In this document: positions 6,944 through 60,033 of the stretch, piece by piece
How the letters are laid out: the number at the start of each line of letters is the position of its first letter
Position numbering within the stretch: the first letter of the stretch is position 1
Source: Fidelibacterota bacterium
Lineage (GTDB): Bacteria > Fidelibacterota > UBA8477 > JABMPR01
Length of the DNA: 64,000 nucleotides
Assembly: GCA_016784025.1 (NCBI GenBank)
Contig: JADHVL010000001.1
Span: 73,753 to 137,752 of the forward strand
Direction of reading: 5' to 3'
Program-made: the position numbers and the translations under genes
Notes under the pieces: model-generated
What the model was told of the DNA's origin: nothing
Databases searched by the model: none
Seen by the model: only the letters and a program-made list of their open reading frames with translations

Positions 6944-6975
6944 CGCACCTTGTTGCTGAAAGGGCAAATAGAATT

Positions 6976-9339
6976 ATGGTGAAAATAGGAAGAACTGGGT
7001 TTGCGCTGATAATGATTCTTTCACTCATGGCAACATCGCTGTGGGCTCAAAGACGTGAATACAAGGTCATGCGCAGAGGCATGATGCGTGAATCACTCTA
7101 CAATAACGGAATTATCAGTACACCGTTTCATAATGATGGGATGGATATCGTGGATCACCCTCAGATGGAATGGCCCAAATATTCAAGTACGGTAGAGGGG
7201 ACCATTATTTATGATGGCCAACACAATACCATGGGTGGTGGTATACATATCTCAGGAAACATACATGACAAACCCTTTCAGGATGAACGTCACTTTTCCT
7301 TTTGTGGTCTTGTGGGAGGGGGCGGACCCGAGGAGACCATCGGTATCTGGAATTTCCCGGTAGAATTTCGTCGTATTGAAAATTATCCCATCCTGGCTGA
7401 TGGAAGTCTAAATCTGGAATATGATCCTGAAGAGGCAGAGGAAATCATTTACGCTAAATGGGCAACCAGTATGGGTGTCACAATCACACGGGTATCCAGA
7501 GCCTGGAGCTATCCTGACTATGACGATATGATTATCCATGAATACGAATTGGTGTTTGACGGAAATACCGATAGTGACCCTACTACTATTGAAGAAGTTG
7601 TCATCGAGCGCGGCTCTGGGGGAATAACCACACTCGATACCGTTCAAGTCTGGGAGGACTTTGTCGTATTCTTCGGTCAGAGCTGGGGTCCAAACATGTT
7701 TGCCTACCAGCGTCAACCTGAATATGGTGGGATATGGAATTGGAAACCGGGACTCATCAGCGATGGAAATCACCAGAGTTTTGACCATAAATTATGGACA
7801 CTTTTCAATTTTGATACTCAAACCAACGGTTCCTTAAACCGTAAGGCAAAACCTGAACCCAATCTGGATCTTTTTGAGGAATGGGCCAGAACCGGTAAAA
7901 ATGGTGGTGGGCTGCTAGCACCACAGGCAGTAGGTATGAGCATGCTGTACTACGACACAAAGCATCTCTCAGCAATCAATATTGCAACCGACACATCAGT
8001 CTATGACGGGGAAACCTCCTATGCCTGGAAAGCCAATGATCACGAACTGTTTCAGTTTCCAGATGAGCCGGATTCCAATGTATTCCGCATCAAGCAACCC
8101 TGGGAAATATACAAGAACAAAGGCTGGTTTGGCCTGAACAAGCTTTACGAAGGAGCTTCCAGTGAGACCGAGAAGCGAGGTAATCCTTTCGGTACAAGTT
8201 ATCTGGATGATCCACGAGTTGGTGAGACCTGGGTCGGTAGGGGAGCCTTCTCGTCTCAAAAGGCTAATGCCATGCCTCTCCAGGCCTTCGCATTTGGACC
8301 CTATACCATTCATCGCGGAGATACCGTTGAATTCAGTATGGCTCAAGTTGTGGGTTACGGAACCGATTCTCGTGAGATTATGGGAGGGGGATCCCATGAT
8401 CAAAGCGTCTTGTTTATGAAACCTGTTCACATTGATTCCTTTGATGTCATTCTTAAAAATGATGAGGGGAATGATGTACTCATGACCAGTCATTATATCT
8501 CTGATTACGGATACCCCGACTATGTCAATTCAGATGTGATCACAATTCAGGATGTATCACGCAAAGCCTATGAGATGTACACTGGAGATTCACTTGCACG
8601 AGTTGAAAGCTGGGGAACCGATGAATTCCGATATTGGCCTGAGAATAATGCAAGAGATGGAAAATATGTTGTTCAGGACATTCCCTGGCCTGCACCCGTG
8701 ATAGACGTTGCCAATACAGCCCTCCAGGGCGTGAGAGTTGCCTGGAATCGGGAGGTGGAGGATTTTCCGTATACAGTGAATGACCTTGGCGGATTCAATC
8801 TATATCGAGCCTATAATCCGCTTGGTCCCTGGAAATTGCTTGTCTCCAAGATAGTCGGAGATGTGAACTCAGATAACTCCTACGAATTCTTTGATGAAGA
8901 CACGACCTTGAAAATGGGTGAAGCTGTGTTTTACGCAGCGACAAGTTTTGATACTGAGGGCTTTGAATCTGGAAAATCCAATATCTTTCCTGATCCAGAT
9001 AATGCAGATGCACCGGCCTTCAGAAGAAGTCAGGGAGCAGTCGAGGAACTGGGTGATATTGTTGTGACACCCAATCCCTTCTTTGAAAAGTCTGGCTTCT
9101 CCGGAACTGGTGAAGATAATATGATTGGATTCTATGGATTGCCTGCAGTATGCACGATCAGGATCTATTCCTATTCTGGACAGCTGGTGGAAACACTGGA
9201 ACACGATTCTGATGCCTACAGTCATCAGTACTTTCAAGTAAGTCGAAACGATCAAATCATTGCAGCCGGTCTCTATTTCTTTTCAGTTTCAACCCCCGAC
9301 GGACAGACCACCGGCGGTAAATTTTTTATTATTAAGTGA
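6976..9339 (+). CDS. Orphan secreted protein with variant T9SS-like C-terminal domain (cassette 1, gene 2)
   Basis: 787 aa with a signal peptide (MILSLMATSLWAQ). I recognise no catalytic or binding domain. The C-terminus VVTPNPFFEKSGF...CTIRIYSYSGQLVETLEH...GLYFFSVSTPDGQTTGGKFFIIK resembles a CTD but deviates from the NYPNPFNP consensus. A paralogue lies at 33259..35538. Confidence 0.6.
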   Translation: MVKIGRTGFALIMILSLMATSLWAQRREYKVMRRGMMRESLYNNGIISTPFHNDGMDIVDHPQMEWPKYSSTVEGTIIYDGQHNTMGGGIHISGNIHDKPFQDERHFSFCGLVGGGGPEETIGIWNFPVEFRRIENYPILADGSLNLEYDPEEAEEIIYAKWATSMGVTITRVSRAWSYPDYDDMIIHEYELVFDGNTDSDPTTIEEVVIERGSGGITTLDTVQVWEDFVVFFGQSWGPNMFAYQRQPEYGGIWNWKPGLISDGNHQSFDHKLWTLFNFDTQTNGSLNRKAKPEPNLDLFEEWARTGKNGGGLLAPQAVGMSMLYYDTKHLSAINIATDTSVYDGETSYAWKANDHELFQFPDEPDSNVFRIKQPWEIYKNKGWFGLNKLYEGASSETEKRGNPFGTSYLDDPRVGETWVGRGAFSSQKANAMPLQAFAFGPYTIHRGDTVEFSMAQVVGYGTDSREIMGGGSHDQSVLFMKPVHIDSFDVILKNDEGNDVLMTSHYISDYGYPDYVNSDVITIQDVSRKAYEMYTGDSLARVESWGTDEFRYWPENNARDGKYVVQDIPWPAPVIDVANTALQGVRVAWNREVEDFPYTVNDLGGFNLYRAYNPLGPWKLLVSKIVGDVNSDNSYEFFDEDTTLKMGEAVFYAATSFDTEGFESGKSNIFPDPDNADAPAFRRSQGAVEELGDIVVTPNPFFEKSGFSGTGEDNMIGFYGLPAVCTIRIYSYSGQLVETLEHDSDAYSHQYFQVSRNDQIIAAGLYFFSVSTPDGQTTGGKFFIIK

Positions 9340-9351
9340 TGTGAGTGGAGT

Positions 9352-10419
9352 ATGAACATGAATAGAAAAATTGGCAGAACGAACCATGTCATGATCTGTC
9401 TGGCACTTTTCCTTTCCTCCCTGACAGCACAGGAGAAAGTGGGAACAACAGCATTTCAATTCCTGAAAGTCAATCCCACTGCCAGATCCGCGGCTATGGG
9501 TGATGCCACCTCATCGTTTGTTGATGGTGCATCCGCCATGTTTATCAATCCTGCAGGTCTAATGAATATTGACAAATTTGATATTTCAGCCTCTTATTTC
9601 AATTATTTCTTCGATGTAAAAACTTCAGCTTTTTCAGCAGCCTACAGCATCCCCAATTTTGGAACAGTTGGTGTGCTGGCTCAACTCACCGATTATGGTG
9701 AAATGAATGTTACTTCAGTTGAGGCTATGGGCTATCAAAATGGAGAGTTTAATCCAGGTTTTACCGGTGAGACATTCAATCCCGGACACCAGATCCTAGG
9801 TCTATCCTATGCCAATACACTTACAAACAAGTTTGCATTTGGTGTGACCGCGAAACACATCAAGGAAAATGCCGATTATTCCTGGAATGGCAGTGAGATG
9901 TCAGCTTCACTCATTGCCTTTGATACAGGACTGCAATACAGGACAGGTTATGAGTCTGTAAAAATTTCAATGGTCCTACGACATTTTGGTAAGGATGTAA
10001 GCTTTATAGAATATGAAGACACCCTGCGAATCTTTCATGATAGCACCTATACGGATGAAATCAGAACGGTAACCGGTAAACAATATCCCTTGCCCCAGAT
10101 TCTGGTTATGGGCATTTCAGGCTACATTTTTGGTCCAAAAGATGCGATTATCGCTACACCAGGCTCCAAATCAAGTCTACTATTCTCAGTGGATATGATG
10201 GCTCCCCGTGATTACGATCAGCAATTTAATTTTGGATTGGAATATGATTTTTCTAATCTTCTCTACTTACGGTCTGGCTACAAGCTGAACTACGATACAG
10301 AGAATTGGAGTCTTGGTTTTGGTCTCCATTATAAAGGTGTGCAGGTAGACTACTCGTTCAATAATTACGATTCATACCTTGGAACCATCAATCGATTTAC
10401 ACTTGGAATAGCCCTCTAA
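9352..10419 (+). CDS. PorV/PorQ-family outer-membrane beta-barrel (cassette 1, gene 3)
   Basis: 355 aa with a signal peptide. N-terminal GTTAFQFLKVNPTARSAAMGDA....ASAMFINPAGL matches the hallmark start of PorV/PorQ-family proteins. Alternating beta-strand pattern to the C-terminus. Confidence 0.7.
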   Translation: MNMNRKIGRTNHVMICLALFLSSLTAQEKVGTTAFQFLKVNPTARSAAMGDATSSFVDGASAMFINPAGLMNIDKFDISASYFNYFFDVKTSAFSAAYSIPNFGTVGVLAQLTDYGEMNVTSVEAMGYQNGEFNPGFTGETFNPGHQILGLSYANTLTNKFAFGVTAKHIKENADYSWNGSEMSASLIAFDTGLQYRTGYESVKISMVLRHFGKDVSFIEYEDTLRIFHDSTYTDEIRTVTGKQYPLPQILVMGISGYIFGPKDAIIATPGSKSSLLFSVDMMAPRDYDQQFNFGLEYDFSNLLYLRSGYKLNYDTENWSLGFGLHYKGVQVDYSFNNYDSYLGTINRFTLGIAL

Positions 10420-10438
10420 AGGTGCTCAGGATAATTTT

Positions 10439-11962
10439 ATGAAAGTACGTCATATACTTGTATCAATGGTTACGCTCTTAGCCCTACTTGTCCTTTCTGA
10501 CAGAGCGTTAGCACAGGGGAATGGGGCAGATCTTGGATTTCAGGGCCTGGGGCAAATCAGTCCCCAGAGCGTGAGAGGACTGGCTACTGGAAATGCATAT
10601 ACTGCCAGATCAGGTGATATTGAATCGATCTATTTTAATCCAGCTGGATTGAATGGAATCCAGGGATTTCAAGTCTCCTACTCTGCCAAAACCACCGAGA
10701 CAACCCTGTGGGAAAATAAAATGTGGGGAGATCAAGAATCTACACCCTTGCTTAGTATGATTATGGATTATCGTTTCGAAATTGATCCTGGACAATATGG
10801 CGTGACTGACGATTCACTCTGGTTGTTGATGGATATTGAGGATATAGGTATTCCTGAGCAAGGAGTTTATCATTACGAGCGGAGTGCTGCAAGTTGGATT
10901 GAAGAACGCTCAAAGCAGCTGCCCTTTAACTCAATCTCTGCTGTTTTACCAGTCACTCTATTCGATCAAGATTTTGTACTGGGTGGCTCTTATTCCAGTC
11001 AGTATAATGTGGATGATTATGATCGTAATGACAGTCATACCGATCCCTTCCTGGCCAACCGACCCTATATGCACTATAACTATGAAACGTCTGACGATAC
11101 TGCTCATGTTGTTTGGTCAAAATTCACCAGAAACCGTCAAGGTGTCATCAATTCAATGCGGTTTGCCCTGGGCTATAGTCTTGGGGAGGTCATTCAACTT
11201 GGTCTAGGGGTGAATAGTCTGTCAGGTGATACTGAGGATGAATTAATCCTCGATAAAATTGCATCCCTCGATTTATGGTCAAAAAGCTTTGTATTTACCC
11301 ACGATTCACTGGTGACCCGAACTTCTGGAACTTCAAGTTTTAGTGGTTTTAATCTGGATATGGGATTCATCTTTGATTTTTCCACAATAGATTTTGGACT
11401 GCATATCAAGCTACCCTATCGTCTGAATCGTGACTGGAGCTATACAAGGCAAATCACATCTCTTGATTCGATCTCATCAACACCTTCAAACGGTCAGGAT
11501 TTTGTGGACATTCCTGCCTCAGGTGCAGTTGGTATAAATATCCAAGCCACACAAGATTTGAGTATTGCCTTTGACATGGGCTTAATACCATACGAGTCAG
11601 CCACTTTTGAATATGCGGACTTTGGATATGGGGATATTGTCTCTGACTCGACTCAGTACCAATGGGTGGATGTATTGAGTTATCAAGTAGGTTTGACATA
11701 TGAGTTTTCAGACTTCTTGACACTAATGGGTGGGTATCGTTCAACGCCACTTCCTTATGTACCCTGGGGAGTTGCAGACAAATCTGAAGGTCCACGATCC
11801 ATGGGTCTGACCACAGGGATATCCATCTCTGTTATGAATATTCAGCTTGATGTTGCTTATGAATACCAGGAGTTAAAGTACTTAGAACCAGCTTATGCCT
11901 ACCTTAATTTCGTTACTCAGCTGAGGAACACATTCCTTGTTGGTTTGACATATGGGTTTTGA
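10439..11962 (+). CDS. FadL/PorV-like outer-membrane beta-barrel (cassette 1, gene 4)
   Basis: 507 aa with a signal peptide ending ALAQG. N-terminal RGLATGNAYTA..GDIESIYFNPAGL motif, as in FadL/UPF0164-type barrels. C-terminal beta-signal ...FLVGLTYGF. Confidence 0.6.
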   Translation: MKVRHILVSMVTLLALLVLSDRALAQGNGADLGFQGLGQISPQSVRGLATGNAYTARSGDIESIYFNPAGLNGIQGFQVSYSAKTTETTLWENKMWGDQESTPLLSMIMDYRFEIDPGQYGVTDDSLWLLMDIEDIGIPEQGVYHYERSAASWIEERSKQLPFNSISAVLPVTLFDQDFVLGGSYSSQYNVDDYDRNDSHTDPFLANRPYMHYNYETSDDTAHVVWSKFTRNRQGVINSMRFALGYSLGEVIQLGLGVNSLSGDTEDELILDKIASLDLWSKSFVFTHDSLVTRTSGTSSFSGFNLDMGFIFDFSTIDFGLHIKLPYRLNRDWSYTRQITSLDSISSTPSNGQDFVDIPASGAVGINIQATQDLSIAFDMGLIPYESATFEYADFGYGDIVSDSTQYQWVDVLSYQVGLTYEFSDFLTLMGGYRSTPLPYVPWGVADKSEGPRSMGLTTGISISVMNIQLDVAYEYQELKYLEPAYAYLNFVTQLRNTFLVGLTYGF

Positions 11963-11998: not shown

Positions 11999-13909
11999 GT
12001 GTTTAAACGACTATTTATACTCATATCGATCAGCCTGACGTTGGGATTTTCCCAATGGGCTGAAGTTTCAGTGTCCAACCAGGGTGAAATTATTGAAGTC
12101 TGCACCCTCAATGATGGATTGGCATTTGCAGTTGTCCACAGTAACAGTGGTACAGAGGTCATCAAAACCACTGATTATGGTCAAAGTTGGATAGCAACAT
12201 CTAACCCCATTGATTGGATGAATGACGCCAAGACGATTGCCTTTAAAAATGAAAATGTGGGACTAGTTGGTGGTACAAATGGGATGTACATTTGGACTCT
12301 AGACGGTGGAACCAACTGGCAACAAAGTCAATTCGGGAATCAGGATGATATTACCTCAGCTCGCTGGATTGATACATCAGAATTGATTATCGCAACGGAA
12401 AACGGTTATGTCTGGTCAACCGACTATTTTGGAGCTGGTTGGGCTGTTAGTACGAGTCTAGAAGCAGCGTTGAATGAAATCAGTGCAAGAGCGAAGGCTT
12501 ATTCGCTAGAGATCATCGATCCGAACAACTGGCTTATCTGCGGCAAGAAAGGTGCAGTGCTTAAAACCAATGATCATGGGATGACCTGGACAGAATGTAA
12601 CCATTCCGCAGGAAAACCAATATTTTATGATATCTCAGCCCTAGATCTTGACAATTGGGTAGTTGTTGGGAATAATGGAAAGATGCTAAAAACTACGAAC
12701 GGGGGTACCAGTTTTTCCCTCATATATCCTGATCAGTCTCAATCGGTCACCTATGAAGCAGTGAGTTATTATGATCTTGATCATGTGATGGTTGGTGGTC
12801 AAGATGACTCAAATTCAGGAATCATTCAATCCTCTTCAGATGGTGGTCTCAACTGGACAGATGAACCTTATACACCGGGTAGTGAAAACACGATCATGAT
12901 TCATGATATCCACATGTACCGACACGACCATGCGATTGCTGTGGGCGACTTCAATCATAATAATCAATCAGCAGATTCTCGCATTTATCTCTATGGTGAA
13001 GCCCTGTTTTATGGTGACATTAATGGAGACAGCCAACTGGATGTGACAGACCTGACTCGGATGATAGAGCTGATTACCTATACAGGCGATCCCGGGCTGG
13101 AAACTGAATTGCGGGTTATGGATATGAATCGAGATGATTCAAATGATATTCTTGATGTGGTAATGCTTATTGAAAGCATTCTTGAGACACAAACGATGGC
13201 CAAGCAGACTGTTTTAGGCACCACCTTTTCTTCACAATCAATAACTCAGATTCATACCATTCTGGAATGGCAAAATGTCCCTGTTCACATCTCATATAAT
13301 GGTATGATATCAGGATTTCAAACAGATGTCAGTTATGATCCAACAGTTTTTGAAATCGGAATACCTGAATTAGCTCCAGGTAACGAGTCTGCCTCAATTT
13401 ATCATCGGACAGGAACTGGAAGTATGCGTGTACTGGGTGTGAATATTGGGGGTGGTCAGATTGATGTTGAATCGGGACTTCTGATGCAAATTCCCATACA
13501 GGCTATTGATGATTCCTATACGGGGCCAATAGAATTTAGTATTGATAATCTGATCCTGGCAGGACCAGGGGGGACTGAAATCCAGGCCGATATACTTTTG
13601 GGTGTTGACGATTCTAAGCCAGTGAATCCCCAGGTAAACAGATTACATCAAAACTTCCCCAATCCTTTTAATCCAAGCACCAGTATCCAATTTGCGATTT
13701 CACATGCTGGACCTGTTTCTCTGGTGGTATTTGACACGCAGGGGAAGCAAGTCGCAACCCTCAAGAATGGTCACCTTTCTACGGGTCATCATCAGGTTAG
13801 TTGGGATGGACTGAACAATAGGGGATATTCTGTAGATACGGGTATCTATTTTTGCCAGTTGAATTCATCAACTGGCTTAAAGACCATCAAAATGTTGCTG
13901 GTAAGATAG
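11999..13909 (+). CDS. BNR/Asp-box (Ycf48-like) beta-propeller protein with dockerin, cohesin-like module and T9SS CTD
   Basis: 636 aa, GTG start, signal peptide. Repeated SxDxGxTW-type blades (TTDYGQSW, TLDGGTNW, TNDHGMTW, TTNGGTSF, SSDGGLNW). Two EF-hand-like dockerin segments (GDINGDSQLDVTDL.., MDMNRDDSNDILDV..). Cohesin-like ISGFQTDVSYDPTVFEI region. CTD NFPNPFNPSTSIQF. Confidence 0.7.
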   Translation: MFKRLFILISISLTLGFSQWAEVSVSNQGEIIEVCTLNDGLAFAVVHSNSGTEVIKTTDYGQSWIATSNPIDWMNDAKTIAFKNENVGLVGGTNGMYIWTLDGGTNWQQSQFGNQDDITSARWIDTSELIIATENGYVWSTDYFGAGWAVSTSLEAALNEISARAKAYSLEIIDPNNWLICGKKGAVLKTNDHGMTWTECNHSAGKPIFYDISALDLDNWVVVGNNGKMLKTTNGGTSFSLIYPDQSQSVTYEAVSYYDLDHVMVGGQDDSNSGIIQSSSDGGLNWTDEPYTPGSENTIMIHDIHMYRHDHAIAVGDFNHNNQSADSRIYLYGEALFYGDINGDSQLDVTDLTRMIELITYTGDPGLETELRVMDMNRDDSNDILDVVMLIESILETQTMAKQTVLGTTFSSQSITQIHTILEWQNVPVHISYNGMISGFQTDVSYDPTVFEIGIPELAPGNESASIYHRTGTGSMRVLGVNIGGGQIDVESGLLMQIPIQAIDDSYTGPIEFSIDNLILAGPGGTEIQADILLGVDDSKPVNPQVNRLHQNFPNPFNPSTSIQFAISHAGPVSLVVFDTQGKQVATLKNGHLSTGHHQVSWDGLNNRGYSVDTGIYFCQLNSSTGLKTIKMLLVR

Positions 13910-14130: not shown

Positions 14131-15705
14131 ATGCTTAAAAAGTTACTCGTCTTAACAATCCTAAGCCTCTCATTTGGTTTTGCACAATGGGTGGAAGTTG
14201 TGATTGAACCGCTGGGAAAGATGAATCAAATTCAAGTATTGGATGATGGTCTGGCTTATGTGGCTCTGGGTGGAACTGGCCATAGTGGTGCTCTGAAAAC
14301 TACTGATTATGGAGCAACCTGGGATACACTAAATTATTATGCTGGCGAAGGCGCATCTTCCTTTTTGACGGTTGCTTTTAATAGTGCAGGTGTCGGATTT
14401 GTAGCTGGTCCAATCGGTTACATGGAAGTCAGTCTAGATGGTGGAGAAACATGGTCATCAGATATCAGCCCTGGCGGTCCTAATAAAATTAATAAAGTTC
14501 AGTGGGTCACTGAGACCAGATTTGTAGCCGCTGATTTTAAGGGTATTCTGTATTATACTGAAGATAATGGAGCGACCTGGACCGAGGATTATGCTCTCAA
14601 TACTGCATTGCTTGGTGTCCATGGCAGTGCCAATATTACAGCCCTTGAAATCGTGGATGAAAACAATTGGCTGGCCTGTGGTAAAAAAGGAGCGATCCTG
14701 AAATCCACAGACGGTGGTGTTTCCTGGACATCAGTAACGCATACTGTCGGGACGATCTTCTTCCAGGATATAACCGCAGTTGATGCAAATAACTGGTATG
14801 TAGTGAGTAACCAGGGTAAAGTTTTGTTTACCAGTGATGGCGGTCCAAATATTGCTGATACAGGTGCCAATCCGGAAGCCACAATTGACTGGTACTGTAT
14901 CGATAATTATGGCGCCAATGATATTATTCTTGGTGGAAAGTATATTGATGGTAACGGGGTTATCATGTCCTCAGCAGATGGTGGAACAACCTGGGTTGCT
15001 GAAACATATGCTGGAGCAGATTTATACAATTATAGTGCCCGTGATATCCACATGTTCAGTGCGACTGACGCTATTGTAGTCGGTGATGTTGGAACGACTG
15101 ATGGTTATGTTTATATCCTTGGTAATCCAGGTTCTGGAACTGGAAACGTTGCACCAACAGCCAACGCTGGTGATGATCAGATTGTTGATGAAGCAGGACC
15201 GGATCTTGGAGCAACTATCACACTTGACGGCTCTGGATCTTCAGATTCAGACGGAACCATCACAGCCTGGGATTGGTCTTGGGAAGGTGGCACAGCCTCA
15301 GGTGAAACTGCAGACGTTGAGCTAGCTGCAGGAACCTACACGGTAACACTCACAGTAACAGATGATGGTGGAGAAACAGCTACTGATGAAGTGAGTATTA
15401 CGGTTAACGTAGTTGTTTCTGTTGACGGTCGAATGAGTCCAATGACATTTGCTCTACATGCAAACTATCCTAACCCCTTCAATCCTTCCACGCAGATTAA
15501 TTATGATTTGACCGAAAGTGGTATAGTTGATTTGACCATTTACGATGTAAATGGTATCGAGGTTAGTAAGCTGGTACAGGGTTATCAAAGCGCTGGATCA
15601 CATTCATTAACCTTCAGTGCGAACAGCCTACCATCTGGTGTCTATGTTGCCAGATTAACTTCAGGTATGAATACTATGACCAGGAAAATGATCCTGATGA
15701 AATAA
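14131..15705 (+). CDS. BNR/Asp-box beta-propeller protein with PKD domain and T9SS CTD
   Basis: 524 aa, AAGGAG RBS, signal peptide. Blades KTTDYGATW, SLDGGETW, TEDNGATW, STDGGVSW, SADGGTTW. PKD-like ITLDGSGSSDSDGTITAWDWSW...TYTVTLTVTDDGG. CTD NYPNPFNPSTQINY. Confidence 0.75.
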   Translation: MLKKLLVLTILSLSFGFAQWVEVVIEPLGKMNQIQVLDDGLAYVALGGTGHSGALKTTDYGATWDTLNYYAGEGASSFLTVAFNSAGVGFVAGPIGYMEVSLDGGETWSSDISPGGPNKINKVQWVTETRFVAADFKGILYYTEDNGATWTEDYALNTALLGVHGSANITALEIVDENNWLACGKKGAILKSTDGGVSWTSVTHTVGTIFFQDITAVDANNWYVVSNQGKVLFTSDGGPNIADTGANPEATIDWYCIDNYGANDIILGGKYIDGNGVIMSSADGGTTWVAETYAGADLYNYSARDIHMFSATDAIVVGDVGTTDGYVYILGNPGSGTGNVAPTANAGDDQIVDEAGPDLGATITLDGSGSSDSDGTITAWDWSWEGGTASGETADVELAAGTYTVTLTVTDDGGETATDEVSITVNVVVSVDGRMSPMTFALHANYPNPFNPSTQINYDLTESGIVDLTIYDVNGIEVSKLVQGYQSAGSHSLTFSANSLPSGVYVARLTSGMNTMTRKMILMK

Positions 15706-15831
15706 TATGATCTATTGTTCCAAAGTTTGATGGTGAGGGGATAGAGTCTTGTGGGCTTTATCCCCTCATTTTGTTTAAGCAAGAAGATAATATTACTCAA
15801 AACAGATATAAATCGAGACAAGGGAGGAAAT

Positions 15832-17400
15832 ATGCTTAGACGATTAATGGTATCAACACTCTTACTGCTAACATTTGTGTTTGCCCAATGGACAGAAACT
15901 GAAATTGTGCCAGATGGGCGGTTGCAGGAGATAAGTATCCTGGATGATGGAACCGCCTACATTGCCATCGGTAATCAGGCAGATACACCCTATGGTGGTG
16001 TTTTGAAATCCACTGATTGGGGCGCAACCTGGGGCGAACTGGATTGTCCGGCAGCAACGACTCCAACCGGGATGCTTTCTGTTGATTTCTGGGATGCGAA
16101 TCTTGGAATTGTCACCGGCAAAGATCATATCGTCATGATAACTCGTGATAGTGGTGCCAGTTGGGAAACACCTGCGTTTGAGTCAGTAAATTCATTCTGG
16201 GTCGCAAAATGGTTGAGCGCTACCACAGTCGTTACAGTTGGGGATAGTGGAAAAGTCTTTATCAGCGAAGATGCAGGAGTGAATTGGACTACACAGCTCG
16301 GGCTTAGAGACATATGCCAGACAGTACATTCAAAAGCAGGCTGTTTCGATATGGCCTTTATTGATGAAAACAACTGGGTAAGTGTCGGCAAAAAAGGAGC
16401 TATGGCAAAAACTACAGATGCCGGTGCTACCTGGACTTTGCTTGCTCACACACTTGGGACACCTGTTTTTCAGGATATCGATTTCATCGACGCAGATAAC
16501 TGGATGATAGTTGGAACAAATGGATCTGCCTTAAAAACGACCGATGCAGGTGCCAGTTTCACAGTCATGTCCATCAACGCTGCTGCAAGATTTGAGGCTC
16601 TGGATTATCTGGATGCTAACAATGCCATGATAGGTGGACATGATGGGGGAGCTCCTACTGGCATTATTTATCAAACGACTGATGGTGGTGCCACCTGGAC
16701 AGATGCGAGCATACCAGCCACTACCGGTAATTCGGTTCGCGCCATCCACATGTTTGATGCAGCTACAGTGATTGCCCTGGGTGACTTAAACCCGGGTGGA
16801 CGAATATTTACTCTGGGCGTTCCAGGTTCTGGAACTGGAAATATTGCTCCAACAGCCAGTGCTGGTGTAGACCAGACTGTTGATGAAGCCGGACCAGGAC
16901 TTGGCGCCACAATCACTCTTGATGGTTCTGGATCATCGGATTCTGATGGTACAATCACAGCCTGGGATTGGTCCTGGGATGGTGGTACAGCTTCTGGTGA
17001 AACAGCTGATGTTGAATTTGCAGCGGGAACATATGCTGTGACACTCACAGTTACAGATGATGGTGGTGAAACAGCTACCGATGAAGTGATTATAGTAATC
17101 AACGTGGTCGTATCTGTTGATGGCCGAATGAGCCCACAGGCATTTGCACTGCATGCAAATTATCCTAACCCCTTCAATCCGACCACTCAGATTAGCTATG
17201 ATTTGGCTGAGAGTGGCTTGGTTGATTTGACGATTTACGATGTAAATGGCATCGAGGTTAGCAAGCTGGTACAGGGTTATAAAAGCGCAGGACATCACAC
17301 ATTGACTTTTTCAGCAGATAACCTGCCCTCTGGGATTTATGTTGCCAGATTATCTTCAGGTATTAAAAGTATGACCAGGAAAATGATTCTGATGAAGTAA
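15832..17400 (+). CDS. BNR/Asp-box beta-propeller protein with PKD domain and T9SS CTD (tandem paralogue)
   Basis: The ORF track begins at GTG 15751. I prefer ATG 15832, which has GGGAGG 6 nt upstream and gives a normal signal peptide (MLRRLMVSTLLLLTFVFAQW). Same architecture as 14131..15705. Confidence 0.75.
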   Translation: MLRRLMVSTLLLLTFVFAQWTETEIVPDGRLQEISILDDGTAYIAIGNQADTPYGGVLKSTDWGATWGELDCPAATTPTGMLSVDFWDANLGIVTGKDHIVMITRDSGASWETPAFESVNSFWVAKWLSATTVVTVGDSGKVFISEDAGVNWTTQLGLRDICQTVHSKAGCFDMAFIDENNWVSVGKKGAMAKTTDAGATWTLLAHTLGTPVFQDIDFIDADNWMIVGTNGSALKTTDAGASFTVMSINAAARFEALDYLDANNAMIGGHDGGAPTGIIYQTTDGGATWTDASIPATTGNSVRAIHMFDAATVIALGDLNPGGRIFTLGVPGSGTGNIAPTASAGVDQTVDEAGPGLGATITLDGSGSSDSDGTITAWDWSWDGGTASGETADVEFAAGTYAVTLTVTDDGGETATDEVIIVINVVVSVDGRMSPQAFALHANYPNPFNPTTQISYDLAESGLVDLTIYDVNGIEVSKLVQGYKSAGHHTLTFSADNLPSGIYVARLSSGIKSMTRKMILMK

Positions 17401-17427
17401 AATTAGAGTCATTCATTTTGACTTATC

Positions 17428-17466
17428 AGAGGCTGATTGCTGCAGAGTGGTCAGCCTCTTTTTGTT
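17428..17466 (+). terminator. Rho-independent terminator after the BNR-PKD gene
   Basis: AGAGGCTGA (17428-17436) pairs with TCAGCCTCT (17451-17459) and is followed by TTTTGTT, 28 nt after the stop at 17400. Confidence 0.7.
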
Positions 17467-17483
17467 CAGGGAGGAAAAGCCCC

Positions 17484-17660
17484 GGACATTGAGCATGCCT
17501 GCACTGAGCGATGTCGAAGTGTCGAAATGTCTTGGACCTTGGCATGATACCCTCCGACTTCGAGAGCCTCAGTCTCCGAAATCCCCTGGACATTGAGCTC
17601 GTCGAAATGTCCTTTGCCCTGGTGATTTCCTCTCCGACTTCGACAGGCTCAGCCTCCGAA
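17484..17660. repeat. Array of small hairpin repeats with conserved TGAGC(T/C)(T/C)GTCGAA core, in alternating orientation
   Basis: Units: 17484-17531 (GGACATT..ATGTC, expanded loop), 17556-17574 (reverse core TTCGAGAGCCTCA), 17588-17612 (GGACATT GAGCTCGTCGA AATGTCC, 7-bp stem), 17638-17652 (reverse core CTTCGACAGGCTCAG). Confidence 0.65.
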
Positions 17661-17712
17661 ACATTCCTGACATTACCTACGCAGTTATACCTTGCGATGA
17701 TTGAAAAATATA

Positions 17713-17727
17713 GTATACTAAATATAC
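17713..17727. promoter_or_regulatory. Palindrome GTATA-CTAAA-TATAC, candidate operator/promoter element
   Basis: Perfect inverted repeat 99 nt upstream of the ATG at 17826, immediately downstream of the hairpin-repeat array. Confidence 0.5.
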
Positions 17728-17825
17728 ATAATAGAGATTTTGCTTCTATGACAACAATGAGAATTATGAGTAAATCTAAAAAAATCATAAAGACAATAAT
17801 AATAGTATGATAGGATGATATTATC

Positions 17826-19193
17826 ATGTTGAATCAACTACATGATTTATGGAAACTGATCATACTTGCCTCAATAACGATTCCAATCTGCGCTCAGTGG
17901 AATGAAGTCTCTGTCCCAGAGGGTAGTATCAAGCTGAATGAGATTTCTATTCTGGATGACGGATTAGCTTTCATTGCATTGGGGGGAGCTCAAAATGGTG
18001 TCACCGAGGGTGGTGTTCTGAAAACATTGAATTATGGTGAGAGCTGGCAGCTGATAGCCAGTCCTGCCAGTGACTTCAGAAAATCCATGGTAACGGTTTC
18101 CTTCAAGAATGAACTGACCGGCTTTGTTGGTGGATCCGTAGAATTATTTTTGCGTACCATGAACGGTGGAGCAAGCTGGACCTATGATGCCTTTGATACA
18201 CCCGAATCCATTAGACGTGTCAGATGGTTAAATGACACCACTGTGGTAGTAATGGACAAGGCAGGAACACTTTGTTTTAGTTCCGATCTTGGGGAAAGCT
18301 GGGATATCGATACAACTCTGGCAGCTGCTGTTTCCAATTTCCATCAACGGGCCAATACCATGGCATTTGAAATTATCGATGAGTACAATTGGATTGCAGC
18401 CGGTAAGAAGGGTGCCTTGTTAAAAACGTCCAATGGGGGACAGAGTTGGTCAAACCTTTATCATCTGGCCGGAACCCCCGTCTTTCAAGACATAGATGCC
18501 CTTGATGTAAACAACTGGATCGTGGTAGGCACGAGTGGTTCCGCGCTCATGACCCAGGATGGAGGCGATCATTTCACCGAGCTTAATCTTGATCCTAACT
18601 ACACTGCTAAATTTCAGGCAGTTAGCTATGCTGATTCAGACAATATTATGATCGGCGGTATTACCGTATCCAGTACAGGATACGGTGTCATCAAGTCCAC
18701 TGCCGATGGAGGAATGACCTGGGAAGATGAAAATTTCGGTGGCAGTGATATCTATGGATTTGCCATCAGGGATCTTCATATGTACGAGCCAGGTCTGGCC
18801 ATTGCTATCGGAGATGCAAATCCAGGTGGTAAAGTCTACCTCCTCGGAGAGCATATTTATTATGGCGATGTTAATGCAGATAGCCTTTTGAATGTCCTTG
18901 ACTTGCAACGTCTCATGGAAATCGTGACCTTTGCAGGTGATGCTGCAAATGAAGACGAACTTCGCATTATTGATATGAATAGAGATTTCTCATATGATGT
19001 CCTGGATGCTGTGTTGTTGATTGAAGCAATTATGGCATTCAATGAGTCTACTGATAGCACATCACGATCAATTGGTTCAGTTGGACGTAGCGATAGTGAT
19101 TTGAACAGTGATGATGGGATTTCACTGGATCAGACAAAAGGTCACAGACTGAAAAGAATATTTGCTAACCACATGAGAAAAACCAGACTTTAA
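17826..19193 (+). CDS. BNR/Asp-box beta-propeller protein with dockerin, lacking T9SS CTD
   Basis: 455 aa. Blades LNYGESW, TMNGGASW, SSDLGESW, TSNGGQSW, TQDGGDHF, TADGGMTW. Dockerin segments GDVNADSLLNVLDL.. and IDMNRDFSYDVLDA... Ends in a Ser/Asp-rich tail with no NYPNPFNP signature. Confidence 0.65.
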   Translation: MLNQLHDLWKLIILASITIPICAQWNEVSVPEGSIKLNEISILDDGLAFIALGGAQNGVTEGGVLKTLNYGESWQLIASPASDFRKSMVTVSFKNELTGFVGGSVELFLRTMNGGASWTYDAFDTPESIRRVRWLNDTTVVVMDKAGTLCFSSDLGESWDIDTTLAAAVSNFHQRANTMAFEIIDEYNWIAAGKKGALLKTSNGGQSWSNLYHLAGTPVFQDIDALDVNNWIVVGTSGSALMTQDGGDHFTELNLDPNYTAKFQAVSYADSDNIMIGGITVSSTGYGVIKSTADGGMTWEDENFGGSDIYGFAIRDLHMYEPGLAIAIGDANPGGKVYLLGEHIYYGDVNADSLLNVLDLQRLMEIVTFAGDAANEDELRIIDMNRDFSYDVLDAVLLIEAIMAFNESTDSTSRSIGSVGRSDSDLNSDDGISLDQTKGHRLKRIFANHMRKTRL

Positions 19194-33249: not shown

Positions 33250-33258
33250 GGGACTCCT

Positions 33259-35538
33259 ATGAAGAATTATTTATATAACCAGAATTCTACTGAGAGTGCT
33301 ATTTCAAAATGCTTAAAGTTGGTATTGCTTATCACATTCCTGATGAGTTTTACATCAACATTATGGGCACAACGTGAACGTCTGGTTCATGATCGTGGCA
33401 CTCTCCATGAGACGTTTTATAACACGGGGGTTTTCGTGGCTCCATTCAAAAATAATGGAATTGAATCTACCAATACTCCCATGACTGAATGGCCAGCCTG
33501 GTCCAGGACTGTGATTGACAATATTGAATATTATGGTCAACACAACGGTCTGGGAGGGGGTATCCATATTGGTGTGAACCATCCAGGAAAGTTAGGTGTA
33601 GATCAAAAACACTTTTCCTTTGCCGGGATGGTTGGTTCAGGTGGTCCAGAGATGGAATATGAAGTTTGGTGCTGGCCTCTTGAATTCTGGAAAGAAACCA
33701 ACTATCCACTGCAGGATGATGGTAGTCTCAATCCGGATTTTGATCCCAATGAGGCCGAACAACTCATTCATACCAGATTTGCTACCAGTGTTGGTATGAC
33801 CGTGACGCGGGTCACTCGCCAATACAGCTATCCCAGGCTGGATGATATCATCTTCCACGAATACGAATTAGAATTTACTGGAAATACCGATTATGATGAA
33901 ACCACTATTGAGCAGGATTCAGTAGATACCTATGTGGATGCCCTGTTTGCATTTCATATGGCCATACCACCTAACATGATGAGCTTTCAGAGAACATTTG
34001 GGTCATGGTACTGGAAACCGGGCATTTTCAGAGGTGATGTATACAACAGCTTTGATACTGATTATGCGATGTTTTATTGTCAAAGCATCAGCACCCAGCA
34101 AGACCACTCCAAACCTTATCATCCTGAACCAGATGAAGATCTGTTCTGGGAGTTTGCGTCTACCGGTTTAAATGGTGGTGGATTGCTGGCACCCCAGGCT
34201 GCTGGTCATACTGCCCTGCATTGGGATAGGGAACATCTAACAGTTCTAGATACGACAGACACTACTTTTCATCTGACCACCATGGAGTATGCACAACATG
34301 CGTCCGACTTTGAATGGGATGAAGGCTTAACCATTAAGCAACCCTGGGGAATTATCCAGAATGCTGGTTGGTTTGTTTCTACTGGGCTCATCAATAAACC
34401 ACACTACAAGACGCATAACCGGGCCCAGGGTAAATTTCCCGAACTTGATGCGCCTGATCCAAATGAGCATCCAATGTTTTGGGTGGGAAGACCCAAGTTT
34501 ACACCTAGAAGTGCAGAAGCACCGGCCTCGTCTTTTATTTGTGGTCCTTATACCATCAACCGCGGTGATAAACTGAATTTTAGTTTTGCACAGGTTGTTG
34601 GATACGGCTCAGAACCAGGAAAAAGGGTATTTGGAGGTGGGCAGAAATCAGATCTATGGGGGACAGCCCCTGATATCAATGCTGAACTCACAGTAGGGGA
34701 TAGTACTTTCAGATATCTGGATACTTTTGGATATCCCGATTATGTAAATGCAGAAACCGGTGTTATCTCTGTACAGGATGTAGCTCGGGAAGCGTGGAAA
34801 GCCTATACTGGCTGGGATATTGAGCATGATTCCCTCTGGGCTGAAGATTCTGTGGTTTGTTGGCCAGATTGGACCGAGCCCCACGGCTTGTATGATGTCT
34901 ATATTCCAGTTCCAGCTCCAGGCTTAAAAGTGAGCAATGATGAAGAGGCCAATGTACACGTGACATGGTCTAGAGCTGTGGAAGATTTCACGCATGCTTC
35001 TTCCGCCCTGGACTCATTCTATGTGTTTAGAAGTTTCAATCGGCTGGGACCATGGAAACGTCTGGTCACTATTGCAGCCGGGGATGTCAATTCAGAGGAT
35101 TACTATGAATACATCGATGACAATCTGGACTTCGCCTTTACAGATGTAGCCTTCTATGCAGTGACCTCAGTTGATGTCAACGGAAATCAGAGTGGCAAAA
35201 CAAATATGACTCAACATCGAAGGGATATTGGACCTGAGGGTGATCTTGAAAATATTTTTATTGTCCCCAATCCCTTTATCCTGGAGAGTGGTTTTCAAAA
35301 TGCGGCACTTGCGAATGCAGTCAGCATTTTCGGACTTCCCGAGAAATGCTCTATCCGTGTCTATAGTTTTGCTGGCCAAAGGGTTCAGAGTATTGAGCAT
35401 GACAATTCTGAGAGTGGATCGCTCACATTTAATCTGGTAAATGAGAACAACATGCTCCTGGCTCCAGGTGTTTATTTTGTTGCCATTCAAACTCCAGAGG
35501 GACAACAGGCCATGACAAAATTTGTGATTATTCGCTAA
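33259..35538 (+). CDS. Orphan secreted protein with variant T9SS-like C-terminal domain (cassette 2, gene 2)
   Basis: 759 aa. Collinear with 6976..9339 (YYGQHNGLGGGIHIG, HFSFAGMVGSGGPE, DDIIFHEYELEFTGNTD, GGGLLAPQAAG, FAQVVGYGS). C-terminus IVPNPFILESGF...CSIRVYSFAGQRVQSIEH...GVYFVAIQTPEGQQAMTKFVIIR. Confidence 0.6.
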   Translation: MKNYLYNQNSTESAISKCLKLVLLITFLMSFTSTLWAQRERLVHDRGTLHETFYNTGVFVAPFKNNGIESTNTPMTEWPAWSRTVIDNIEYYGQHNGLGGGIHIGVNHPGKLGVDQKHFSFAGMVGSGGPEMEYEVWCWPLEFWKETNYPLQDDGSLNPDFDPNEAEQLIHTRFATSVGMTVTRVTRQYSYPRLDDIIFHEYELEFTGNTDYDETTIEQDSVDTYVDALFAFHMAIPPNMMSFQRTFGSWYWKPGIFRGDVYNSFDTDYAMFYCQSISTQQDHSKPYHPEPDEDLFWEFASTGLNGGGLLAPQAAGHTALHWDREHLTVLDTTDTTFHLTTMEYAQHASDFEWDEGLTIKQPWGIIQNAGWFVSTGLINKPHYKTHNRAQGKFPELDAPDPNEHPMFWVGRPKFTPRSAEAPASSFICGPYTINRGDKLNFSFAQVVGYGSEPGKRVFGGGQKSDLWGTAPDINAELTVGDSTFRYLDTFGYPDYVNAETGVISVQDVAREAWKAYTGWDIEHDSLWAEDSVVCWPDWTEPHGLYDVYIPVPAPGLKVSNDEEANVHVTWSRAVEDFTHASSALDSFYVFRSFNRLGPWKRLVTIAAGDVNSEDYYEYIDDNLDFAFTDVAFYAVTSVDVNGNQSGKTNMTQHRRDIGPEGDLENIFIVPNPFILESGFQNAALANAVSIFGLPEKCSIRVYSFAGQRVQSIEHDNSESGSLTFNLVNENNMLLAPGVYFVAIQTPEGQQAMTKFVIIR

Positions 35539-35558
35539 ACGCGACCCAGGGAGAAAGA

Positions 35559-36533: not shown

Positions 36534-36545
36534 ACTGGATATAAG

Positions 36546-60017: not shown

Positions 60018-60033
60018 TATAAGGAGTCATACA

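What the first reader, a model, noticed from the sequence alone, without database searches (positions are those of the whole stretch)
13010..13610. Dockerin and cohesin-like module in one T9SS-exported protein
Seen directly:
- Two 22-residue segments have EF-hand-like spacing, GDINGDSQLDVTDLTRMIELI and MDMNRDDSNDILDVVMLIESI (D-x-N-x-D-x-x-x-D-x-x-D). This is the classic type-I dockerin duplication.
- It is followed by a ~120-aa region with ISGFQTDVSYDPTVFEI..., which resembles the cohesin core strand pattern (gfqfdl.yD...l).
- A second propeller paralogue (17826..19193) carries a dockerin but no cohesin and no CTD.

Inference: a minimal cohesin-dockerin pair could tether the CTD-less paralogue to the T9SS-anchored one. 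That would form a small cellulosome-like surface assembly in a Gram-negative fucoidan degrader.
Basis: partly seen in the sequence, partly recalled or inferred. Interest (0 to 1): 0.7.

Follow-up and report, generated by a model that had tools for sequence, protein, structure and literature searches.

The report
Dockerin-cohesin cassette on Marinimicrobia surface protein
A secreted protein of an uncultured marine bacterium (Marinimicrobia/SAR406) really carries a calcium-binding "plug" (dockerin) directly next to a divergent "socket" (cohesin) in front of its type IX secretion tag, a cassette shared by many proteins of this phylum and missed by routine annotation; what the socket actually binds (itself, the neighbouring paralogue, or other proteins) is still untested.

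Summary
Gene 11999-13909 (+) encodes 636 aa: signal peptide, BNR/Ycf48-like propeller, type I dockerin (Pfam 31-37 bits, cut-off 22.9), short linker, cohesin, T9SS type A CTD.

The cohesin misses Pfam's cut-off alone (15.8-19.3 vs 24.1 bits). It is still a real cohesin:
- A profile of 30 homologues hits almost only cohesins in the PDB.
- 22 of 30 homologues hit Pfam Cohesin (best 9e-17).
- The AF2 model (pLDDT 86) has cohesins as all top-50 PDB matches.

The 455-aa paralogue (17826-19193) has the same type of dockerin, no cohesin and no CTD.

Dockerin-cohesin-CTD is a recurrent C-terminal cassette of Marinimicrobia T9SS cargo, including proteins over 2000 aa. The two modules are always adjacent, and AF2 gives the tandem pTM 0.80, implying packing in cis. 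Stand-alone cohesin anchors and proteins ending in a dockerin also exist.

The most likely mechanism resembles Ruminococcus bromii Amy4: the cohesin binds dockerins of its own type, both its own and those of dockerin-only proteins. Exclusive tethering of the paralogue is one possibility among several. This is a non-cellulosomal cohesin-dockerin system, a new variant of a known kind. Binding partners are unproven.

The parts
11999..13909 (+). Gene for the 636-aa protein: signal peptide, propeller, dockerin, cohesin, T9SS CTD
   Evidence: ORF. The identical protein is called on at least 24 metagenome contigs. Domains.
11999..12055 (+). Predicted N-terminal signal peptide (MFKRLFILISISLTLGFSQ)
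   Evidence: Read from the sequence. The hydrophobic N-terminus is conserved in the L004 orthologue. Inferred; no predictor was run.
12056..13003 (+). BNR/Asp-box beta-propeller (Ycf48/sortilin-like); catalytic or binding role unknown
   Evidence: Pfam PSII_BNR 38.1 bits. The nearest PDB relatives are Ycf48 proteins, E about 2e-6.
13010..13189 (+). Type I dockerin, two F-hand repeats (residues 338-397)
   Evidence: Pfam PF00404 31.2 and 37.1 bits against cut-off 22.9. Family HMM 81.3 bits. AF2 gives three helices, H15-26, H34-40 and H50-61, at pLDDT above 90.
13190..13228 (+). Short dockerin-to-cohesin linker (…ETQTMAKQTVLGT…) with a conserved basic residue
   Evidence: Low pLDDT in the AF2 tandem model. 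A K/R lies at the equivalent place in all 20 aligned cassettes.
13229..13633 (+). Divergent cohesin module (residues about 411-545)
   Evidence: sub-threshold Pfam hit, cohesin-only profile matches to the PDB, and a cohesin fold with TM about 0.68.
13655..13903 (+). T9SS type A C-terminal sorting domain
   Evidence: TIGR04183 36.8 bits against cut-off 23. Pfam FlgD_ig 39.8 and Por_Secre_tail 25.9 bits.
17826..19193 (+). 455-aa paralogue: signal peptide, propeller, dockerin, Ser/Asp-rich segment and basic tail. No cohesin, no CTD.
   Evidence: An orthologue with the same architecture is in L004 and L021.
18861..19037 (+). Dockerin of the 455-aa paralogue
   Evidence: Family HMM 69.5 bits. Pfam 23.9 bits for the isolated segment. 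It keeps all 15 positions that are invariant among clade dockerins.
14131..17400 (+). Two further propeller paralogues (524 and 549 aa) carrying PKD + T9SS CTD in place of dockerin-cohesin

Best explanation
The 636-aa protein is a T9SS-exported surface protein of a Marinimicrobia (SAR406) bacterium. Its C-terminus is a three-module cassette: a calcium-binding type I dockerin, a divergent cohesin about 13 residues further on, and a type A CTD.

After export and CTD processing the cohesin would be the module nearest the membrane. I propose that the cohesin binds dockerins of the local "Marinimicrobia type". That includes its own dockerin, either in cis or head-to-tail between copies. It also includes dockerins on proteins that have no anchor of their own, such as the adjacent 455-aa paralogue. 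Propeller proteins of this fucose/sulfated-glycan locus would then be held together at the cell surface. This is the behaviour shown experimentally for Ruminococcus bromii Amy4.

Shown here: the identity of the modules, their order, the recurrence of the cassette, and the existence of dockerin-only and cohesin-only partners.
Inferred: every binding event, calcium dependence, surface anchoring, and the balance between self-binding and partner binding.
For: Module identity.

Cassette recurrence:
- All 20 of the homologous proteins that carry both modules have them adjacent. The 15 GTDB loci, almost all Candidatus Neomarinimicrobiota, show the same. Typical order is dockerin, 0-14 residues between profile envelopes, cohesin, then a T9SS CTD.
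- The passengers are unrelated, for example RGI-lyase/fn3 in P0003 (2445 aa).

Same dockerin type on both paralogues:
- They are 54% identical. All 15 clade-invariant positions are kept, and the residues at loop positions 10/11 and helix positions 17/18 are nearly the same.

Partners acting in trans exist in this lineage:
- A 243-aa SP-cohesin-CTD gene lies beside a gene for a protein ending in a dockerin (L025).
- P0013 (SP-cohesin-CTD) is a Marinimicrobia protein.
- P0014 (161 aa, cohesin behind a lipoprotein-type signal) is encoded in the same assembly (CAYVVT01) as a giant cassette protein.
- Many marine contigs carry runs of proteins that end in a dockerin.

Conservation of the pair: the dockerin-cohesin-CTD gene and the dockerin-only gene are both kept, in synteny, in a second species at about 74% identity.

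Precedent: the Amy4 cohesin binds its own dockerin and those of Amy9 and Amy10 (PMC4611034).
Against: - No binding data exist, and no multimer model could be run.
- The AF2 tandem model has pTM 0.80 with a disordered linker. By my arithmetic this needs a fixed cis arrangement, which could leave the cohesin permanently occupied and unavailable to the paralogue.
- The cohesin is very divergent (12-22% identity to solved cohesins), so loss or change of dockerin binding cannot be excluded.
- The propeller has no demonstrated enzymatic role.
- Cohesin-only anchors were not shown in this organism itself. Only 64 kb was available.
Confidence: 0.45

Rival explanations
1. Cis clasp only. The dockerin binds the cohesin of the same polypeptide and forms a rigid, calcium-stabilised stalk or spacer between the passenger and the CTD (or A-LPS anchor). 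It recruits no other protein. The dockerin-only paralogue binds elsewhere or nowhere.
For: - The two modules are strictly adjacent, with a short, bounded linker, in every cassette examined.
- The AF2 tandem has pTM 0.80 although residues 65-80 are below pLDDT 50. Independent domains would give about 0.57 by my estimate.
- The cassette sits on very different passengers, as a generic structural element would.
Against: - Free-standing cohesins and C-terminal dockerin-only proteins of the same families exist and must act in trans.
- Some relatives carry extra cohesins (cohesin x3-dockerin-cohesin-CTD in P0030), which implies multivalent recruitment.
- AF2 monomer models can place an intermolecular interface in cis.
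- No coordinates or PAE could be inspected.
Confidence: 0.25
2. The cohesin of the anchored 636-aa protein is the dedicated receptor for the dockerin of the CTD-less 455-aa paralogue, giving a minimal two-component surface complex.
For: - The two genes lie 4 kb apart on the same strand. Both are conserved, with the same architectures, in a second species.
- The 455-aa protein has a signal peptide but no anchor.
- Its dockerin is of the same type as the cassette dockerins.
Against: - The 636-aa protein's own dockerin is equally matched and tethered about 13 residues from the cohesin, so it has a large advantage in effective concentration.
- The cassette occurs on many proteins with no dockerin-only paralogue nearby.
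- Alternative cohesin anchors exist in the lineage.
Confidence: 0.15
3. The cohesin-fold module no longer binds dockerins. It serves as an Ig-like spacer or a glycan-binding beta-sandwich, and the dockerin is merely a calcium-binding stabilising element.
For: - The Pfam Cohesin score is below the cut-off.
- Identity to solved cohesins is only 12-22%.
- Many non-cellulosomal dockerins have no known partner (background knowledge).
Against: - Cohesin and dockerin co-occur and are co-conserved across a deep clade.
- The module is homologous to bona fide multi-cohesin scaffoldins. P0009 has six cohesins plus SLH, and was reached at phmmer E 7.7e-7 from this sequence alone.
- The dockerin's calcium ligands and helices are fully intact.
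Confidence: 0.1

Closest known systems
Ruminococcus bromii Amy4 (amylosome; Ze et al. 2015, PMC4611034)
   Same: One secreted glycan-related protein carries both a cohesin and a dockerin. Its cohesin binds its own dockerin (multimerisation) and the dockerins of dockerin-only enzymes Amy9 and Amy10. Neighbouring or paralogous dockerin-only proteins exist in both systems.
   Different: Amy4 is from a Gram-positive Firmicute and is anchored through the sortase-linked Sca2. Amy4's dockerin is at its C-terminus, and no T9SS CTD is present. Its catalytic module (GH13) is known. Binding was measured for Amy4 and not here.
Archaeoglobus fulgidus non-cellulosomal cohesin/dockerin proteins (PDB 2xdh; Bayer 1999 and Voronov-Goldman 2011, as cited in PMC4611034)
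   Same: It is a non-cellulosomal cohesin in an organism without a cellulosome. 2xdh is among the sequence-profile and structural matches. From memory, one ORF holds cohesin plus dockerin and the neighbouring ORF holds a dockerin only.
   Different: It is archaeal, with no T9SS and no glycan-utilisation locus. The gene-level details rest on my memory because the primary papers were not held.
Clostridium perfringens GH84C/NagJ-type and GH33 cohesins (PDB 2jh2, 2o4e, 2w1n, 2vo8)
   Same: They are the best structural matches (E 1e-4, TM 0.68-0.70). They are single cohesins on secreted glycan-active proteins rather than on scaffoldins. Their known role is to pair enzymes (background knowledge).
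   Different: They are from a Gram-positive pathogen, with cohesin and dockerin on different enzymes. Identity is 12-18%, and there is no T9SS.
Cellulosome-like system proposed for Cloacimonadota 'Ca. Stygibacter' (Williams et al. 2021, PMC8542988)
   Same: The paper proposes a cohesin-bearing protein attached to the cell surface through a conserved C-terminal domain (citing the T9SS review of Lasica et al. 2017), together with signal-peptide enzymes that end in dockerins.
   Different: There, a 3755-aa scaffoldin carries tandem cohesins and CBMs, and the enzymes are separate. Here there is one cohesin fused directly behind a dockerin on each cargo protein, and no scaffoldin in the window.
Classical clostridial cellulosome (type I cohesin-dockerin, e.g. 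1ohz, 1g1k)
   Same: Both modules are homologous to it. The dockerin has duplicated F-hands that are nearly symmetrical, as in dual-binding-mode enzyme dockerins.
   Different: Here there is no multi-cohesin scaffoldin, no CBM3, and no dockerin on a recognised CAZyme in the window. The organism is Gram-negative with T9SS anchoring.

Membership tests
Dockerin type I (Pfam PF00404) | Profile match above the curated threshold | tested here: met
   31.2 bits in the whole protein and 37.1 bits isolated, against cut-off 22.9. The paralogue scores 21.0 in the whole protein and 23.9 isolated, which is borderline.
Dockerin type I (Pfam PF00404) | Two ~22-residue F-hand repeats, each a 12-residue Ca2+ loop with D/N at positions 1, 3, 5, 9 and 12 followed by a helix | tested here: met
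   DINGDSQLDVTD and DMNRDDSNDILD, read directly. AF2 gives helices H15-26 and H50-61 at pLDDT above 90.
Dockerin type I (Pfam PF00404) | Ca2+-dependent binding to a cohesin | not testable with these tools
   Needs ITC, ELISA or native PAGE.
Cohesin (Pfam PF00963) | Single-sequence profile match above the curated threshold | tested here: inconclusive
   15.8-19.3 bits, E 0.017-0.0014, cut-off 24.1. It is the only family hit in the region. A curated threshold is a classification aid and does not define the fold.
Cohesin (Pfam PF00963) | Homology to bona fide cohesins at profile level | tested here: met
   The family profile (A1) hits almost only cohesins in the PDB (26 of 27 at E <= 1), with 1g1k at E 2e-5 over the full length. 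22 of 30 members hit PF00963, best 9e-17. P0020 (66 bits) and P0030 (107 bits) are above the cut-off and have the same cassette. phmmer from this sequence reaches the six-cohesin scaffoldin P0009 at E 7.7e-7.
Cohesin (Pfam PF00963) | Nine-stranded flattened beta-sandwich (jelly-roll) fold | tested here: met
   The AF2 model has pLDDT 85.8, pTM 0.79 and nine strands. All top-50 Foldseek PDB hits are cohesins, with TM up to 0.70.
Cohesin (Pfam PF00963) | Binds a dockerin on the 8-3-6-5 face | not testable with these tools
   No multimer prediction or coordinates were available. The only indirect hint is pTM 0.80 for the tandem.
T9SS type A C-terminal sorting domain (TIGR04183 / PF18962) | Profile match above the threshold at the extreme C-terminus | tested here: met
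   TIGR04183 36.8 bits against 23. The Pfam model scores 25.9 against 27, just below. PorV-like genes lie in the same window.
Cellulosome (multi-enzyme scaffoldin system) | Scaffoldin with several cohesins integrating dockerin-bearing enzymes | tested here: not met
   A family-HMM scan of all six frames finds one cohesin and two dockerins in 64 kb, and both dockerins sit on propeller paralogues. Multi-cohesin relatives exist elsewhere (P0009, P0030) but not in this window.
Cellulosome (multi-enzyme scaffoldin system) | Dockerins carried by recognised carbohydrate-active enzymes | tested here: not met
   None of the fucosidases, sulfatases or beta-helix proteins in the window has a dockerin. 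The propeller matches only Ycf48/BNR-type models.
Self-complementary cohesin+dockerin protein (Amy4-like) | Cohesin and dockerin in one polypeptide | tested here: met
Self-complementary cohesin+dockerin protein (Amy4-like) | The cohesin recognises its own dockerin and those of partner proteins | not testable with these tools
   Indirect evidence only: AF2 tandem pTM 0.80, and the same invariant dockerin positions in the paralogue.

The most novel reading that the evidence does not exclude
The dockerin-cohesin-CTD cassette may be a phylum-wide surface-assembly device of Marinimicrobia, working as a self-complementary or cleavable tether. Each T9SS cargo would bring its own membrane-proximal socket and a plug. 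Cargo would then either polymerise head-to-tail into a surface lattice, or be cut at the invariant K/R in the linker and stay docked non-covalently on its own anchored cohesin. The second mode would resemble SEA/GAIN-type cleaved-but-associated domains. Dockerin-only proteins and the small cohesin anchors (behind a lipoprotein-type signal, or with a CTD) would act as caps and bases. This would be a new organising principle for the outer surface of one of the most abundant uncultured lineages of the dark ocean.
Probability: 0.15. Interest if true: 0.75.

Novelty: new variant of a known kind. Interest (0 to 1): 0.5.

Why it matters
Marinimicrobia (SAR406) are abundant in the deep ocean and in oxygen-minimum zones, and almost none have been cultured. 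How they hold degradative proteins on their surface is unknown.

This work shows three things:
- They carry a divergent cohesin family that public annotation does not see.
- The cohesin is fused in a fixed dockerin-cohesin-CTD cassette to many T9SS cargo proteins, including giant ones.
- It occurs here inside a fucose/sulfated-glycan utilisation locus.

If the modules bind as their homologues do, this is a T9SS-coupled protein-assembly system for attacking recalcitrant algal glycans such as fucoidan. It would bear on marine carbon turnover. It would also supply new orthogonal cohesin-dockerin pairs for Gram-negative surface display. The concept itself is not new: non-cellulosomal cohesin-dockerin pairs are known, and a CTD-bearing cohesin scaffoldin has been proposed for Cloacimonadota.

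Tried and rejected
- Single-sequence search of the dockerin-cohesin region against the PDB gave only marginal dockerin hits and one spurious tail-sheath hit.
- The word-indexed homologue search with the dockerin-cohesin region found nothing. The same tool with a dockerin profile returned only short dockerin fragments, which were useless for a census of architectures.
A six-sequence sub-alignment worked.
- Foldseek with the tandem model could not report on the interface, because it matches single chains only.
- Peer et al. 2009, the key survey of non-cellulosomal cohesins and dockerins, is not held in the library. Statements about it rest on how other papers cite it.
- No paper in the library links Marinimicrobia, SAR406 or Marinisomatota with dockerins.
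- I considered that the 455-aa paralogue might be a truncated pseudogene that lost its cohesin and CTD, and rejected it. Its length and its C-terminal tail are conserved in a second species, and the next gene follows 26 bases later.
- I considered that the cohesin-like region might be a PKD or Ig spacer like those of the two other paralogues, and rejected it. No PKD or Ig family hits it, and the fold search returns only cohesins.
Full report
**What is at the coordinates.** ORF 11999-13909 (+) encodes a 636-aa protein. The identical protein has been called on at least 24 metagenome contigs, so the gene model is not peculiar to this window. From N to C the protein has:
- a hydrophobic signal-like N-terminus;
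- a BNR/Asp-box propeller (Pfam PSII_BNR 38 bits; nearest PDB relatives are Ycf48 proteins, E about 2e-6);
- a dockerin (residues 338-397);
- a linker of about 13 residues;
- a cohesin (residues about 411-545);
- a T9SS type A sorting domain (TIGR04183, 36.8 bits against a cut-off of 23).

**Dockerin.** Pfam Dockerin_1 scores 31.2 bits in the whole protein and 37.1 bits for the isolated segment, against a cut-off of 22.9. Both 12-residue loops have the canonical D/N ligands at positions 1, 3, 5, 9 and 12. The two repeats are nearly symmetrical (VTDLTRMIELI and ILDVVMLIESI). AF2 models three helices there at pLDDT above 90.

**Cohesin.** On its own the segment reaches only 15.8-19.3 bits on Pfam Cohesin (cut-off 24.1), although Cohesin is the only family hit there.
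- The word-indexed homologue search found nothing.
- An exhaustive phmmer of residues 396-552 against 1.84 billion cluster representatives found 34 proteins, including the protein itself.
- A 30-sequence alignment of the domain (A1), used as a profile against all PDB sequences, returned 27 hits. All but one weak flagellin-like hit are cohesins. They include the C. cellulolyticum cohesin 1g1k over its full length (E 2e-5), the C. perfringens NagJ cohesins, and the A. fulgidus non-cellulosomal cohesin.
- Scanned individually, 22 of the 30 members hit Pfam Cohesin, best E 9e-17. P0020 (66 bits) and P0030 (107 bits) are far above the cut-off and carry the same dockerin and CTD.
- The window's sequence alone reaches P0009 at E 7.7e-7. 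P0009 is a six-cohesin, SLH-anchored scaffoldin.
- An AF2 model built on A1 has pLDDT 85.8, pTM 0.79 and nine strands. All of its top-50 Foldseek hits in the PDB are cohesins. The best are the single cohesins of C. perfringens glycoside hydrolases (2jh2, E 1e-4, TM 0.68; 2vo8, TM 0.70).

I therefore treat it as a genuine, very divergent cohesin that curated thresholds miss. The precomputed Pfam record of the exact protein lists no cohesin. NCBI names for relatives are "FlgD Ig-like", "T9SS type A sorting domain-containing" or "choice-of-anchor J".

**The paralogue.** ORF 17826-19193 (455 aa) is 40% identical to the 636-aa protein from the signal peptide to the end of the dockerin, and then diverges.
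- Its dockerin is borderline in Pfam (21.0-23.9 bits) but scores 69.5 bits on an HMM built from the family's dockerins.
- It keeps all 15 positions that are invariant in an alignment of ten clade dockerins.
- It has no cohesin and no CTD. It ends in a Ser/Asp-rich stretch and a basic tail, and the next gene, an RhaM mutarotase, starts 26 bases later.
- It is not a decayed copy. The orthologue in another species has the same length and the same tail.

**Organism and context.** A scan of one genome per GTDB species with the six closest cohesins gave 15 loci. Twelve are titled Candidatus Neomarinimicrobiota (Marinimicrobia/SAR406), one plain "bacterium", and three "uncultured Lentisphaeria". L004 (MAG SI053_bin15) is a syntenic orthologous locus. 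It has the PorV-like and FadL-like genes, a 637-aa dockerin-cohesin-CTD protein (74% identity in the cohesin), two PKD-CTD paralogues and the 455-aa dockerin-only paralogue.

The window itself is a large fucose/sulfated-glycan utilisation locus. It contains:
- four GH29 fucosidases and three sulfatases;
- several GH141-like or beta-helix proteins;
- TonB-dependent receptors and PorV-like proteins;
- a mutarotase and an ABC sugar transporter;
- many other proteins with a T9SS CTD.

"Gram-negative fucoidan-type degrader with T9SS" is therefore a fair description.

**The key new fact: a recurrent cassette.**
- All 20 homologues that contain both modules have the dockerin immediately upstream of the cohesin, with 0-14 residues between the profile envelopes. 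A CTD-length C-terminal tail follows, and Pfam or the NxPNPF motif confirms the CTD in those checked.
- The same holds for all 15 GTDB loci, where the proteins are at least 1800-2200 aa.
- The passengers are unrelated to the propeller, for example RGI-lyase beta-sheet, fn3 and ASH domains in P0003.
- The window contains exactly one cohesin and two dockerins.
- The linker always holds a K or R 6-10 residues after dockerin helix 3.
- An AF2 model of the tandem (213 aa, 20-sequence alignment) has pLDDT 82 and pTM 0.80, while the linker (residues 65-80) is below pLDDT 50.

With d0 of about 5.4 Å, two confidently folded but mutually unconstrained domains of 130 and 60 residues would give a pTM near 0.57. 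A value of 0.80 requires low predicted error between the domains. AF2 therefore predicts a defined dockerin-on-cohesin arrangement in cis. This is my inference from the summary numbers, because coordinates and PAE were not available.

**Evidence that the family also works in trans.**
- Cohesin-only proteins of the same family exist. There are SP-cohesin-CTD proteins of about 250 aa; P0013 is a Marinimicrobia protein with 16 cluster members. There are also 161-aa proteins with a lipoprotein-type signal followed by a cohesin (P0014, P0024, P0031).
- P0014 is encoded among housekeeping genes in assembly CAYVVT01. That is the same assembly that holds the giant cassette protein of L005.
- A metagenome scan with the dockerin profile found orthologues of both window proteins. 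It also found many proteins that simply end in a dockerin, often two or three in a row.
- In L025 a 243-aa SP-cohesin-CTD gene lies divergently next to a 501-aa gene for a protein that ends in a dockerin.
- Some relatives have several cohesins before the cassette (P0030: cohesin x3-dockerin-cohesin-CTD).

**Mechanism.** Putting this together, the cohesin most likely binds dockerins of the local type. Its own dockerin is the closest candidate, either in cis or head-to-tail between molecules. The dockerin of the 455-aa paralogue is of the same type and could be recruited as well. This is exactly what was measured for R. bromii Amy4, whose cohesin binds its own dockerin and those of the dockerin-only amylases Amy9 and Amy10 (PMC4611034). 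I give this reading 0.45. The alternatives are:
- a cis-only structural clasp, 0.25;
- a cohesin fold that no longer binds dockerins, 0.10.

All binding steps, calcium dependence and A-LPS anchoring after CTD removal are inferred from what is known of the families. None was tested.

**Comparison with what is known.**
- Cohesin and dockerin modules outside cellulosomes are long known. Peer et al. 2009 is cited for this in PMC8542988 and PMC6487960, but the paper itself was not held.
- A cohesin scaffoldin attached to the cell surface through a conserved C-terminal domain, together with dockerin-tagged enzymes, has been proposed for Cloacimonadota (PMC8542988).
- Self-recognising cohesin+dockerin proteins are known (Amy4; A. 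fulgidus).

Three things are different here. The cassette is a fixed, directly adjacent dockerin-cohesin-CTD unit. It is spread across a whole uncultured phylum. Its cohesin clade is invisible to Pfam thresholds. I found no paper in the held library that connects Marinimicrobia, SAR406 or Marinisomatota with dockerins. It is not a cellulosome: the window holds no scaffoldin and no dockerin on a recognised CAZyme.

**Verdict.** This is a new variant of a known kind, of moderate interest (0.5). The most novel reading not excluded is that the cassette is a polymerising or cleavable self-tether that organises the Marinimicrobia surface proteome. I give that a probability of about 0.15.

Noticed in passing
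window 19040-19190 (C-terminus of the 455-aa paralogue); L004 10831-12198: The dockerin-only paralogue ends in a Ser/Asp-rich stretch followed by a strongly basic tail, QTKGHRLKRIFANHMRKTRL. The tail is conserved in the orthologue of another species (QTKGHRMKRIFANRLRKFNI). Its function is unknown; it could be a membrane- or LPS-binding tail or a sorting signal.
   Followed up: partly
window 13184-13222 and alignment A4: The short dockerin-to-cohesin linker contains a K or R 6-10 residues after dockerin helix 3 in all 20 aligned cassettes (MAK, LAK, LSK, GRS, ...). It could be a processing site or an interface contact.
   Followed up: partly
window 4022-11962 and 30343-38063: There are two paralogous four-gene modules. 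Each has a TonB-dependent receptor (973/968 aa), an unknown 787/759-aa protein, a PorV-like protein (355/324 aa) and a FadL/Toluene_X-like (507 aa) or unassigned (505 aa) protein. The unknown proteins are 40% identical to each other, have no Pfam hit, and have a C-terminus that looks like a T9SS CTD. This looks like a SusD-less uptake module specific to this lineage.
   Followed up: partly
window 19219-60984: A large fucose/sulfated-glycan utilisation locus. It has four GH29 alpha-L-fucosidases (39852, 41472, 53673, 56107) and three sulfatases (23522, 38251, 49746). It also has GH141-like or beta-helix proteins, some with a T9SS CTD (21129, 25638, 47351, 51426), an RhaM-type mutarotase (19219), and an ABC sugar transporter with a periplasmic binding protein (57553-60984).
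   Followed up: partly
window 14131-17400: Two further propeller paralogues carry a PKD domain where the 636-aa protein has dockerin-cohesin. The same propeller is therefore displayed with three different C-terminal solutions within 7 kb: PKD-CTD, dockerin-cohesin-CTD, and dockerin only.
   Followed up: partly
L005, L009, L015 (GTDB genome contigs): Three MAGs carrying the Marinimicrobia-type cassette are titled 'uncultured Lentisphaeria', whereas all the others are Neomarinimicrobiota. This could be a taxonomic mislabel or a horizontal transfer.
   Followed up: no
L035 1-1380: A protein with a dockerin followed by a shortened (about 95 aa) cohesin-like segment (…GGVQMTLKHDADF…) and a CTD. It may be a reduced version of the cassette. 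The cohesin HMM did not score it.
   Followed up: no
window 17400-17826: A 426-bp gap lies upstream of the dockerin-only paralogue. The neighbouring paralogues are more tightly spaced. The 133-aa minus-strand ORF there looks spurious. It may hold a separate promoter for the dockerin-only gene.
   Followed up: no
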